Assembly (NCBI RefSeq): GCF_001677475.2
Contig: NZ_CP015229.1
Length of the DNA stretch: 64,000 nucleotides
Source: Escherichia coli
GTDB taxonomy: Bacteria > Pseudomonadota > Gammaproteobacteria > Enterobacterales > Enterobacteriaceae
Reading direction: 5' to 3' (one strand)
Positions 44,401-47,400 of this stretch are shown here, piece after piece. The stretch's first letter is position 1; every line of letters starts with the position of its first letter. The position numbers were made by a program.

Positions 44401-47400
44401 ATATCTTCTTCTGTCTTGCCACAGAAGAACAGAAAATCGGGCTTTTGCGCCTGAATATTGCGGAGAAAAAGCATGGCCGGGAATGACCGCGAGCCAATTG
44501 GACGCAAAGGGAAACCGACGCGTCCGGTCAAACAAAAGGTAAGCCGTCGTCGTTACGAAGATGACGATTACGACGATTATGATGACTATGAGGATGAAGA
44601 ACCGATGCCGCGCAAAGGTAAGGGCAAAGGCAAAGGGCGTAAGCCTCGTGGCAAACGCGGCTGGCTATGGCTGCTGTTAAAACTGGCTATCGTTTTTGCC
44701 GTGCTGATCGCCATTTACGGCGTTTATCTCGATCAAAAAATTCGCAGCCGCATTGATGGCAAGGTCTGGCAACTGCCTGCGGCAGTTTATGGCCGAATGG
44801 TCAACCTTGAGCCAGATATGACCATCAGCAAGAACGAGATGGTGAAGCTGCTGGAGGCAACACAGTATCGTCAGGTGTCGAAAATGACCCGTCCTGGCGA
44901 ATTTACCGTGCAGGCCAACAGCATTGAGATGATTCGCCGTCCGTTTGATTTCCCGGACAGTAAAGAAGGGCAGGTGCGTGCGCGTCTGACCTTTGATGGC
45001 GATCATCTGGCGACGATCGTCAATATGGAGAACAACCGTCAGTTCGGTTTCTTCCGTCTTGATCCGCGTCTGATCACCATGATCTCCTCGCCAAACGGTG
45101 AGCAGCGTTTGTTTGTGCCGCGCAGTGGTTTCCCTGATTTGCTGGTGGATACTTTGCTGGCGACAGAAGACCGCCATTTCTACGAGCATGATGGGATCAG
45201 TCTCTACTCCATCGGACGTGCGGTGCTGGCAAACCTGACCGCAGGTCGCACGGTGCAGGGTGCGAGTACGCTGACGCAACAGCTGGTGAAAAACCTGTTC
45301 CTCTCCAGCGAGCGCTCTTACTGGCGTAAAGCGAATGAAGCCTACATGGCGCTGATCATGGACGCGCGTTACAGCAAAGACCGTATTCTTGAGCTGTATA
45401 TGAACGAGGTGTATCTCGGTCAGAGCGGCGACAACGAAATCCGCGGCTTCCCGCTGGCGAGCTTGTATTACTTTGGTCGCCCGGTAGAAGAATTGAGCCT
45501 CGATCAGCAGGCGCTGTTAGTCGGTATGGTGAAAGGGGCGTCCATCTACAACCCGTGGCGTAACCCGAAACTGGCGCTGGAGCGACGTAATCTGGTGCTG
45601 CGTTTGCTACAACAACAGCAGATTATCGATGGTGAACTGTATGAAATGCTCAGCGCGCGTCCTCTGGGCGTACAGCCGCGCGGTGGGGTAATCTCTCCAC
45701 AGCCAGCCTTTATGCAACTGGTGCGTCAGGAGCTGCAGGCGAAATTAGGCGATAAGGTAAAAGATCTCTCCGGCGTGAAGATCTTCACTACCTTTGACTC
45801 GGTGGCCCAGGACGCGGCAGAAAAAGCCGCCGTGGAAGGCATTCCGGCACTGAAGAAACAGCGTAAGCTGAGCGATCTGGAAACCGCGATTGTGGTCGTC
45901 GACCGCTTTAGTGGTGAAGTTCGTGCGATGGTCGGAGGTTCTGAGCCGCAGTTTGCGGGCTACAACCGTGCGATGCAGGCGCGTCGTTCGATTGGTTCCC
46001 TTGCAAAACCAGCGACTTATCTGACTGCCTTAAGCCAGCCGAAAATCTATCGCCTGAACACGTGGATTGCGGATGCGCCAATCGCGCTGCGTCAGCCGAA
46101 TGGCCAGGTCTGGTCACCGCAGAACGATGATCGTCGTTATAGCGAAAGTGGCAGAGTGATGCTGGTGGATGCGTTGACCCGTTCGATGAACGTGCCGACG
46201 GTAAATCTGGGGATGGCGCTGGGGCTGCCTGCGGTTACGGAGACCTGGATCAAACTGGGCGTGCCGAAAGATCAGTTGCATCCGGTTCCGGCGATGCTGC
46301 TGGGGGCGTTGAACTTAACGCCAATCGAAGTGGCGCAGGCATTCCAGACCATCGCCAGCGGCGGTAACCGTGCACCGCTTTCTGCGCTGCGTTCGGTAAT
46401 CGCGGAAGATGGCAAAGTGCTGTATCAGAGCTTCCCGCAGGCGGAACGCGCGGTTCCGGCGCAGGCGGCGTATCTGACACTATGGACCATGCAGCAGGTT
46501 GTACAACGCGGTACGGGTCGTCAGCTTGGGGCGAAATACCCGAACCTGCATCTGGCAGGGAAAACAGGGACTACCAACAATAACGTAGATACCTGGTTTG
46601 CGGGCATTGACGGCAGCACGGTGACCATCACCTGGGTAGGCCGTGATAACAACCAGCCGACCAAACTGTATGGAGCCAGCGGGGCAATGTCGATTTATCA
46701 GCGTTATCTGGCTAACCAGACGCCAACACCGCTGAATCTTGTTCCGCCAGAAGATATTGCAGATATGGGCGTGGACTACGACGGCAACTTTGTTTGCAGC
46801 GGTGGCATGCGTGTCTTGCCGGTCTGGACCAGCGATCCGCAATCGCTATGCCAGCAGAGTGAGATGCAGCAGCAGCCGTCAGGCAATCCGTTTGATCAGT
46901 CTTCTCAGCCGCAGCAACAGCCGCAACAGCAACCTGCTCAGCAAGAGCAGAAAGACAGCGACGGTGTAGCCGGTTGGATCAAGGATATGTTTGGTAGTAA
47001 TTAACGTCTAAGCGTGACATACCGGATGGCGAGTAGCCATCCGGTAAAATAACATCCCACCCAAAGTATTAACCCTTTCTTTTCATCTGGTTGTTTATTA
47101 ACCCTTCAGGAACGCTCAGATTGCGTACCGCTTGCGAACCCGCCAGCGTTTCGAATATTATCTTATCTTTATAATAATCATTCTCGTTTACGTTATCATT
47201 CACTTTACATCAGAGATATACCAATGGCGCGTTCCAAAACTGCTCAGCCAAAACACTCACTGCGTAAAATCGCAGTTGTAGTAGCCACAGCGGTTAGCGG
47301 CATGTCTGTTTATGCACAGGCAGCGGTTGAACCGAAAGAAGATACTATCACCGTTACCGCTGCACCTGCGCCGCAAGAAAGCGCATGGGGGCCTGCTGCA

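What the first reader, a model, noticed from the sequence alone, without database searches (positions are those of the whole stretch)
47165..47210. Fur box-like repeats in the fhuA promoter
ATAATAATCATTCTC and adjacent TTATCATT motifs resemble overlapping Fur hexamers (GATAAT) just upstream of fhuA, consistent with iron-repressed expression of the phage T1/T5 receptor.
Basis: partly seen in the sequence, partly recalled or inferred. Interest (0 to 1): 0.3.

Follow-up and report, generated by a model that had tools for sequence, protein, structure and literature searches.

The report
Known Fur operator of E. coli fhuA
This is the already documented binding site for the iron-sensing repressor Fur at the start of the E. 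coli fhuA (ferrichrome and phage T1/T5 receptor) operon; the finding is real but ordinary, and the neighbouring second motif has been footprinted by a different regulator, HypT.

Summary
The window is E. coli chromosome (mrcB–fhuACDB), identical to MG1655 from 47067 to the fhuA ATG at 47224. Both quoted strings exist (47171–47185 and 47193–47200).

A Fur weight matrix built from 16 experimentally bound MG1655 sites, fhuA excluded, scores 47170–47188 (TATAATAATCATTCTCGTT, centre 47179) at 20.3 bits. That is the best score in the 64 kb by about 6 bits, with 0.01 such hits expected by chance. It is the published site: Chen et al. 2007 report MG1655 167439, 19.5 bits, gel shift. Later work adds Fur ChIP-exo peaks and Δfur derepression.

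The Cappable-seq TSS maps to 47168, 7 nt after a conserved TTGCGA–18–TATTAT promoter, so Fur sits at +3 to +21. In 77 Enterobacteriaceae sequences (76 orthologues plus the window) the site is 96% conserved, against 63–75% for the flanks.

The second motif is only a Fur-like half-site. It scores 12.7 of 15.5 bits, but there is no full site (−5.3 bits). It lies inside TTACGTTATCATTCA (47188–47202), which matches exactly a DNase I footprint of HypT on the Salmonella fhuA promoter.

Verdict: the Fur interpretation is supported and already known, and interest is low. The only open detail is whether Fur also touches the HypT block.

The parts
47170..47188 (.). Primary Fur dimer site (9-1-9; 7-1-7 core TAATAATCATTCTCG at 47172-47186; centre C47179). 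It spans +3 to +21 relative to the Cappable-seq TSS.
   Evidence: The fhuA-independent matrix gives 20.3 bits, top of the window. It equals the published site at MG1655 167439, 19.5 bits, gel shift (with mapping). It matches the ChIP-exo motif TGAnAATnATTcTCA at 11 of 13 specified positions. Across 77 aligned sequences, mean majority frequency is 0.963 and 12 of 19 columns are invariant.
47164..47194 (.). Whole predicted Fur cluster: weak overlapping positions centred at 47173 (6.5 bits) and 47185 (0.4 bits), 6 bp either side of the main site.
   Evidence: profile. It reproduces the '3 walkers, 31 bp' of Chen 2007 Table 4.
47188..47202 (.). Conserved downstream block TTACGTTATCATTCA, at +21 to +35.
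   Evidence: It is identical to the proximal HypT DNase I footprint on the Salmonella fhuA promoter (Jo 2019). Mean majority frequency over 47189-47203 is 0.950. The half-site scores 12.7 of 15.5 bits, but the full site at centre 47191 scores -5.3. A Fur ChIP-exo peak is called at 47196-47206.
47132..47137 (+). -35 hexamer TTGCGA (TTGCTA in most orthologues)
   Evidence: Promoter scan gives 9 of 12 matches with an 18-bp spacer. Conservation is 0.94. Its position fits the measured TSS.
47156..47161 (+). -10 hexamer TATTAT
   Evidence: Promoter scan. Conservation is 0.97, with 4 of 6 columns invariant. The TSS lies 7 nt downstream.
47168..47168 (+). Transcription start site of fhuACDB (MG1655 167428), giving a 56-nt leader
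   Evidence: Cappable-seq, relative read score 31.4, in supplementary file 1 of Ettwiller 2016. The listing shows no TSS between 167428 and 167477, so none at 167442 or near 167466.
47071..47085 (.). Distal HypT footprint homologue AACCCTTTCTTTTCA, at -97 to -83
   Evidence: One mismatch to the Salmonella footprint AACCCTTCCTTTTCA. Conservation is 0.69.
47212..47217 (+). Shine-Dalgarno region CAGAGA
   Evidence: Conserved at 0.89 between variable linkers. The role is inferred from its position 7-12 nt before the ATG.
47224..49467 (+). fhuA coding sequence (ferrichrome outer-membrane transporter; receptor for phages T1, T5 and phi80)
   Evidence: ORF listing; NCBIfam NF007465 equivalog at 1473.7 bits against a cut-off of 803; MG1655 annotation.
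44470..47004 (+). mrcB (PBP1b), the upstream gene whose stop bounds the 219-bp intergenic region
   Evidence: The start was mapped from MG1655 164730.

Best explanation
Window 47170-47188 is the primary operator for the ferric uptake regulator Fur at the sigma-70 promoter of the fhuACDB operon. When intracellular Fe2+ is sufficient, an Fe2+-Fur dimer binds the imperfect inverted repeat TAATAAT-C-ATTCTCG. One or two more dimers probably bind at the weak overlapping positions 6 bp away. The site lies immediately downstream of the -10 hexamer and covers +3 to +21, which is inside the DNA that RNA polymerase must occupy. Binding therefore blocks initiation or promoter escape, and the ferrichrome and phage receptor is made mainly under iron limitation. 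The site sequence, its rank, its conservation and its position relative to the measured TSS are shown here. In vitro binding, in vivo occupancy and Fur-dependent expression come from the literature. The steric mechanism is inferred from the geometry. The adjoining conserved 15 bp (47188-47202) is best read as the proximal HypT (YjiE) operator described in Salmonella. Together with a distal site about 100 bp upstream, it is proposed to let oxidised HypT loop the promoter and add repression under HOCl stress. It also embeds a Fur-like half-site in hexamer register, so Fur may contact it as well.
For: Locus identity. Independent matrix: 20.3 bits, rank 1 of 64 kb, 0.01 expected by chance. Published site at the same base: Chen 2007, 19.5 bits, 3 walkers, 31 bp, gel shift; Shultzaberger 2007 also reports the gel shift. 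In vivo: Fur ChIP-exo peaks at fhuACDB in MG1655 and W3110, and delta-fur log2 fold changes of 1.07-5.0 in 8 strains; fhuA promoter-lacZ repressed by Fur. TSS at window 47168, fitting the conserved TTGCnA-18-TATTAT. Footprinting: all 76 syntenic-type orthologues keep a site of at least 15 bits at -43 to -49 from the ATG, and it is the best site of the roughly 5-kb locus in 75 of 77 loci. Variation is confined to the central base and to ATT(A/C)TC, positions where Fur sites are degenerate. Within E. coli, the 51-bp operator stretch is found in 5410 of 5426 genomes, against 1338 for a control stretch of the same spacer. HypT: exact match to the footprint sequence.
Against: The site is at the weak end of validated Fur sites (20.3 bits against 19.8-29.2). 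Repression in MG1655 is modest (log2 fold change 1.09). No DNase I footprint of Fur on this promoter was found in the papers searched. The ChIP-exo peak is called at 47196-47206, 17-27 bp downstream of the matrix centre, so the in vivo contact map does not sit squarely on the 19-mer. TSS assignment is not unanimous: a promoter compilation used by Jo 2019 places it at 47182, which would put the Fur site at -12 to +7. HypT evidence is from Salmonella in one study, with only a twofold effect in vivo.
Confidence: 0.95

Rival explanations
1. The second motif (47193-47200) is a further Fur hexamer or half-site, and the whole 34-bp invariant block (47170-47203) is one extended Fur operator on which additional dimers assemble cooperatively. 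On this reading HypT binding is secondary or incidental.
For: GTTATCATT scores 12.7 of 15.5 bits, better than either half of the main site. Its implied centre is exactly 12 bp (2 x 6) from 47179, the spacing rule seen in Fur clusters. All 9 orthologue variants of this 9-mer stay at or above the 99th percentile of random 9-mers, and one becomes the perfect ATTATCATT. The Fur ChIP-exo peak is called at 47196-47206 in two strains. Published Fur footprints often extend beyond the predicted sites, with 54-91% coverage.
Against: No full site is present: centres 47188-47206 score -5 to -43 bits. Chen's cluster ends at 47194. The sequence is an exact HypT DNase I footprint. ChIP-exo interval calls of 11-13 bp are too coarse to place a dimer.
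Confidence: 0.3
2. TATCAT (47194-47199) in the second motif is the -10 hexamer of the real fhuA promoter, so Fur would act by covering the -35 and spacer region. This is the arrangement predicted by Shultzaberger et al. 2007, with the -10 placed 29 nt before the ATG.
For: A published flexible sigma-70 model gives 7.3 bits. TATCAT matches TATAAT at 5 of 6 positions and is invariant in most orthologues.
Against: Cappable-seq lists no TSS between 167428 and 167477, so none near 47206. No -35-like hexamer lies 16-18 bp upstream, and the consensus scan finds no such plus-strand promoter. The TTGCnA-18-TATTAT pair is conserved with fixed spacing and matches the measured TSS.
Confidence: 0.05
3. The conserved +22 to +36 stretch acts at the RNA level, as a leader structure or an sRNA or protein binding site that controls fhuA translation or stability.
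For: It is transcribed: the 56-nt leader starts at 47168. It is more conserved than first and second codon positions, 0.95 against 0.87.
Against: The MFE is -7.6 kcal/mol with z = -0.38 against shuffles. RNAalifold on 24 orthologues predicts no pairs. There is no Rfam match at E <= 1. hfq inactivation did not change the fhuA transcript (Maes 2016). A DNA-level footprint already accounts for the exact 15-mer.
Confidence: 0.05
4. The motifs are just AT-rich promoter DNA that resembles GATAAT by chance, with no Fur function.
For: The classical 19-mer match has 5 mismatches. The best raw-consensus hit in the window (3 mismatches, at 9728) is a coding repeat, which shows that consensus matching alone gives false positives.
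Against: Matrix rank 1 with 0.01 expected, cross-genus invariance, gel shift, ChIP-exo and delta-fur data.
Confidence: 0.01

Closest known systems
Fur box of E. coli K-12 fhuA (fhuACDB promoter), as catalogued by Chen et al. 2007 (NAR 35:6762) and Shultzaberger et al. 2007 (NAR 35:771)
   Same: Identical DNA: the window is 100% identical to MG1655 from 47067 to beyond the ATG. The centre is the same (167439 = 47179), the strength is about the same (19.5 against 20.3 bits), and the 3-site, 31-bp cluster is the same.
   Different: Nothing in the sequence. Only the promoter assignment differs. Those authors predicted a -10 at -29 from the ATG, whereas Cappable-seq and conservation point to TATTAT at 47156-47161 with the TSS at 47168.
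Other E. coli Fur operators, for example mntH, ryhB and gpmA
   Same: The same 9-1-9 inverted repeat. mntH (TTTGATAATCATTCTCGTT) shares 15 consecutive bases with fhuA, and ryhB and gpmA share the ATTCTCATT half. All overlap core promoter DNA.
   Different: fhuA lacks the G of TGATAAT in its left half (it has TAATAAT) and scores near the bottom of the validated range. It is abutted by a second regulator's footprint.
HypT (YjiE) operator of the Salmonella Typhimurium fhu promoter (Jo et al. 2019, PNAS 116:3740)
   Same: The proximal footprint TTACGTTATCATTCA is identical to window 47188-47202. The distal footprint differs at 1 of 15 bases (47071-47085). The spacing between the two sites is 102 nt, as reported.
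   Different: HypT binding has not been shown on the E. coli DNA itself. The published numbering (+7 to +21) uses a compiled TSS 14 nt downstream of the measured one.

Membership tests
Fur operator (Fur box) | Sequence match to the Fur recognition matrix or consensus at the level of experimentally bound sites | tested here: met
   20.3 bits with a matrix from 16 bound sites excluding fhuA (training range 19.8-29.2), and rank 1 in 64 kb. It also matches 14 of 19 positions of the classical consensus, 11 of 14 of the 7-1-7 motif (read from the sequence), and 11 of 13 of the ChIP-exo motif.
Fur operator (Fur box) | Position overlapping the core promoter or start site of the regulated gene | tested here: met
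   +3 to +21 relative to the Cappable-seq TSS at 47168, or -12 to +7 with the compiled TSS at 47182. Either placement is inside the region RNA polymerase contacts.
Fur operator (Fur box) | Direct binding by Fur in vitro | not testable with these tools
   Literature only: gel shift of a fhuA oligonucleotide with 150 nM Fur (Chen 2007; Shultzaberger 2007).
Fur operator (Fur box) | Occupancy in vivo, and Fur- and iron-dependent expression of the downstream gene | not testable with these tools
   Literature only: ChIP-exo peaks under iron-replete conditions, and delta-fur derepression in 8 of 9 strains (Gao 2023); fhuA-lacZ fusions (Beauchene 2015).
Fur operator (Fur box) | Evolutionary conservation above the neutral flanks | tested here: met
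   0.963 against 0.63-0.75 for the flanks and 0.72 for third codon positions, in 77 aligned sequences. A site of at least 15 bits is present in 76 of 77 loci.
Second full Fur dimer site at TTATCATT | Positive full-site score (both half-sites present) | tested here: not met
   Centres 47188-47206 all score below zero; the best is -5.3 at 47191. Only the right half is Fur-like, at 12.7 bits.
HypT (LysR-type) operator | Identity to the DNase I-footprinted sequences of the fhu promoter | tested here: met
   TTACGTTATCATTCA is present exactly at 47188, and AACCCTTTCTTTTCA at 47071 matches the distal footprint at 14 of 15 bases.
HypT (LysR-type) operator | HypT binding and HOCl-dependent repression in this organism | not testable with these tools
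   Shown only for Salmonella: EMSA, footprint and a twofold qRT-PCR effect.
Sigma-70 -10 element at TATCAT (47194-47199) | A transcription start 6-8 nt downstream | tested here: not met
   The Cappable-seq list has no TSS between 167428 and 167477.
Structured cis-regulatory leader RNA | Stable or covarying secondary structure, or an Rfam family match | tested here: not met
   z = -0.38, no consensus pairs, no Rfam hit.

The most novel reading that the evidence does not exclude
The 34-bp near-invariant block at 47170-47203 is a composite operator in which Fur and HypT share DNA. The HypT footprint embeds a near-perfect Fur half-site in exact hexamer register, and the in vivo Fur ChIP-exo signal is called on top of it. 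The two repressors could therefore compete or cooperate there, integrating iron and hypochlorite signals at one promoter across the Enterobacteriaceae.
Probability: 0.2. Interest if true: 0.3.

Novelty: already known. Interest (0 to 1): 0.08.

Why it matters
FhuA is the entry point for ferrichrome, albomycin, colicin M, microcin J25 and phages T1, T5 and phi80. Its iron-dependent repression therefore sets both iron uptake and phage or antibiotic susceptibility. All of that is textbook, and this exact site is already catalogued. The small gains from this work are a cleaner map of the promoter and a quantified footprint. The measured TSS at 47168 places Fur at +3 to +21 rather than over a -10 hexamer, as older compilations assume. 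The operator is more conserved than the protein-coding sequence across the family.

Tried and rejected
1. A classical 19-mer consensus scan with up to 3 mismatches missed fhuA and instead hit a coding Asp/His-rich repeat in yacH at 9728. I replaced it with a weight matrix.
2. The paper on the 'PfhuA' expression system turned out to use the Vibrio cholerae fhuA promoter, so it is not evidence for this locus.
3. The Chen 2007 supplement with the oligonucleotide sequences is not held. I rebuilt the site list from Table 4 coordinates, checking each against gene starts.
4. Attempts to find a second experimental TSS dataset failed. Thomason 2015 and Seo 2014 are not held, and the Romero 2014, Shigella M90T and ROSE supplements have no fhuA entry.
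5. The leader-RNA hypothesis was rejected on folding, covariation and Rfam results.
6. The TATCAT -10 hypothesis was rejected on the TSS data.
7. The flanking ChIP-exo peaks at 46958-46994 and 47381-47412 have no matrix support, with best scores of 5.9 and -19 bits, so I did not count them as parts.
8. The minus-strand promoter-like hit (ATGATA...TATTAT) is a by-product of the palindromic Fur-like sequence and was not pursued.

Full report
**Identity of the locus.** The finding lies in the 219-bp spacer between an 848-codon ORF ending at 47004 and a 747-codon ORF starting at 47224. NCBIfam calls these PBP1b/MrcB and ferrichrome porin FhuA, the latter an equivalog at 1473.7 bits against a cut-off of 803. 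The next ORF is FhuC. A 501-bp query across the spacer matches 5,421 of 5,426 complete E. coli genomes, where it is annotated mrcB | fhuA. Aligned with MG1655, the window is identical from 47067 to beyond the start codon, with window coordinate = MG1655 coordinate − 120,260.

**The observation.** ATAATAATCATTCTC occurs once in the window (47171–47185) and TTATCATT is at 47193–47200. There is no exact GATAAT in the promoter. The classical 19-mer GATAATGATAATCATTATC finds nothing at fhuA within 3 mismatches. The best register, 47167–47185, has 5 mismatches, a level reached by 10 positions in the window. Consensus matching alone is therefore only suggestive. The best raw match in the window (3 mismatches, at 9728) is a coding Asp/His-rich repeat in yacH.

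**Weight-matrix test.**
- I took the centre coordinates of experimentally supported Fur sites from Table 4 of Chen et al. 2007 (PMC2189734).
- I converted them to NC_000913.3 and checked each against the annotated gene start.
- I built a palindromic 19-bp matrix from 16 footprinted or gel-shifted sites, or 20 with sufA, bfd, mntH and fiu added. fhuA was excluded from both.
- The position centred at 47179 (47170–47188, TATAATAATCATTCTCGTT) scores 20.3 bits (20.7 with 20 sites).
- That is the best score in the 64 kb (next best 14.4) and lies within the training range of 19.8–29.2. In 200 block shuffles, 0.01 positions per window score as high.
- Weaker positive positions at 47173 (6.5 bits) and 47185 (0.4 bits) define a 47164–47194 cluster.

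**Agreement with the published site.** Chen et al. list the fhuA cluster as 19.5 bits, 3 walkers and 31 bp, with the strongest site at 167439 (window 47179), 45 bp upstream of the ATG, confirmed by gel shift. My cluster is exactly theirs. Shultzaberger et al. 2007 report the same gel shift. The core TAATAATCATTCTCG matches the 2023 ChIP-exo motif TGAnAATnATTcTCA at 11 of 13 specified positions.

**In vivo evidence from the literature.**
- Gao et al. 2023 list Fur ChIP-exo peaks for the fhuACDB transcription unit under iron-replete conditions, in MG1655 (167456–167466) and in W3110 (167456–167468).
- They also report fhuA derepression in Δfur in 8 of 9 strains, with log2 fold changes from 1.07 to 5.0.
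- Beauchene et al. 2015 show Fur repression of a fhuA promoter–lacZ fusion.

**Promoter geometry.** The consensus scan finds one plus-strand σ70-like promoter: TTGCGA (47132–47137), an 18-bp spacer, then TATTAT (47156–47161). Cappable-seq lists a strong TSS at MG1655 167428, which is window 47168, with score 31.4. That is 7 nt after TATTAT. The only other nearby entries are minor ones at 167477 and 167494 (Ettwiller 2016 supplement). Fur therefore covers +3 to +21 of a 56-nt leader.

Two other assignments exist. Shultzaberger et al. predicted a promoter whose −10 lies 29 nt before the ATG, which is TATCAT inside the second motif. Jo et al. 2019 adopted a TSS equivalent to window 47182 from the Huerta & Collado-Vides compilation. 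Neither start appears in the Cappable-seq list. With any of the three assignments the Fur site overlaps DNA that RNA polymerase contacts, so repression by occlusion is the inferred mechanism. I could not find a second experimental TSS dataset.

**Phylogenetic footprint.** One scan of species-representative genomes returned 78 fhuA loci from Escherichia, Salmonella, Citrobacter, Enterobacter, Klebsiella, Kosakonia, Buttiauxella, Hafnia, Ewingella and others. mrcB was detected upstream in 63 of 77 of them. Conservation in an alignment of 77 distinct upstream sequences (76 orthologues plus the window):

| Region | Window coordinates | Mean majority frequency |
|---|---|---|
| −35 hexamer | 47132–47137 | 0.94 |
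| −10 hexamer | 47156–47161 | 0.97 |
| Main Fur site | 47170–47188 | 0.963 (12 of 19 columns invariant) |
| Downstream block | 47189–47203 | 0.950 |
| Linkers and promoter spacer | 47138–47155, 47162–47169, 47204–47211 | 0.63–0.75 |
| fhuA codon positions 1 and 2 | first 60 nt of the coding sequence | 0.87 |
| fhuA codon position 3 | first 60 nt of the coding sequence | 0.72 |

- The main site varies essentially only at the central base (A or C), at ATT(A/C)TC and at its first base. These are positions where known Fur sites are degenerate.
- All 76 syntenic-type orthologues keep a site of at least 15 bits, 43–49 bp before the ATG.
- A non-syntenic homologue, L049, has its own 13.1-bit box at −44.
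- Within E. coli, the 51 bp at 47156–47206 are found in 5,410 of 5,426 genomes, and 4,182 of those are identical. A control 51-mer from the same spacer is found in only 1,338.
- A sampled variant strain differs only at 47164, outside the main site.

**The second motif.** No full Fur site is predicted for centres 47188–47206; the best score is −5.3. However, GTTATCATT (47192–47200) is an excellent half-site, at 12.7 of 15.5 bits. Only 4 of about 128,000 9-mers in the window score as high. Its implied centre is exactly 12 bp from 47179. Its orthologue variants all remain Fur-like.

I tested three other readings.
- A structured leader RNA is not supported: MFE z = −0.38, no consensus pairs in 24 orthologues, and no Rfam hit. 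hfq inactivation also has no effect on the fhuA transcript.
- A −10 element is not supported by the TSS data.
- A site for another regulator is supported. Jo et al. 2019 footprinted Salmonella HypT (YjiE), a LysR-type hypochlorite sensor, on the fhuA promoter at TTACGTTATCATTCA and AACCCTTCCTTTTCA. The first sequence is identical to window 47188–47202. The second matches 47071–47085 at 14 of 15 bases.

Whether Fur also contacts it remains open. The ChIP-exo peak called at 47196–47206 and the half-site statistics are compatible with that, but they do not show it.

**Comparison, novelty and score.** This is the catalogued Fur operator of E. coli fhuA, with identical sequence, position and strength, so it is already known. 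The weak-side score (20.3 bits) and the modest MG1655 derepression (log2 1.09) fit a leaky, intermediate-affinity operator. What this work adds is minor: a promoter map anchored on a measured TSS, a quantified cross-genus footprint, and the reassignment of the second motif to HypT. Interest is low (0.08). The most novel reading not excluded is a shared Fur–HypT composite operator (probability about 0.2).

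Noticed in passing
window 9722-9780 (best 19-mer at 9728-9746): This is the best raw match in the window to the classical Fur consensus: GGTGATGATAATCATCATC, 3 mismatches, 14.4 bits at 9731. 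It lies in a GAT/CAT-rich coding repeat on the minus strand that encodes DWDDDDHDHHHHDDDDYHHHD, in yacH (DUF3300). It is probably a compositional false positive rather than a Fur site.
   Followed up: partly
window 47021-47045: A perfect 10-bp hairpin, ACCGGATGGC-GAGTA-GCCATCCGGT, lies 17 nt after the mrcB stop codon, with no T-run on either strand. The loop differs by one base from MG1655, and the region is largely absent or unalignable in other genera. It may be the mrcB terminator or a REP-like element.
   Followed up: no
window 47067-47077 and 47096-47106: TATTAACCCTT is directly repeated 29 bp apart. The first copy overlaps the distal HypT footprint homologue (47071-47085). The second copy's TTAACCC core is the better conserved across genera (0.83 against 0.69).
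   Followed up: partly
window 47168 vs 47182 vs about 47206: Three different fhuA start sites are in circulation: the Cappable-seq TSS (167428), a compilation-derived TSS used by Jo 2019 (equivalent to 167442), and a model-predicted promoter with its -10 at -29 from the ATG. Only the first is in the experimental list I could read. Minor Cappable-seq starts also exist at 47217 and 47234.
   Followed up: partly
window 46958-46994 and 47381-47412: Gao 2023 lists two extra MG1655 Fur ChIP-exo peaks flanking the promoter, one in the mrcB 3' end and one inside fhuA. Neither has a Fur-like sequence: the best matrix scores are 5.9 and -19 bits.
   Followed up: partly
L049:1400-1500 (Enterobacter sp. 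BIGb0383): This FhuA homologue (68% identity) has a different N-terminus and no mrcB upstream. It nevertheless carries its own Fur-like box, CGCGATAATAACTCTCATT (13.1 bits), 44 bp before its ATG.
   Followed up: no
L051 (Hafnia alvei) and L038 (Intestinirhabdus alba), outside the fhuA promoter: Each locus contains a second site elsewhere in the roughly 5 kb that scores as high as the fhuA operator: 21.4 bits in L051 and 16.2 bits in L038. I did not locate them or identify the associated genes.
   Followed up: no
window 29840-29858, 7206-7224, 5425-5443, 36526-36544, 58753-58771: These further positions score 12-14 bits with the Fur matrix, above the 10-bit genome-scan cut-off of Chen 2007. I did not examine their gene context or any ChIP support.
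   Followed up: no
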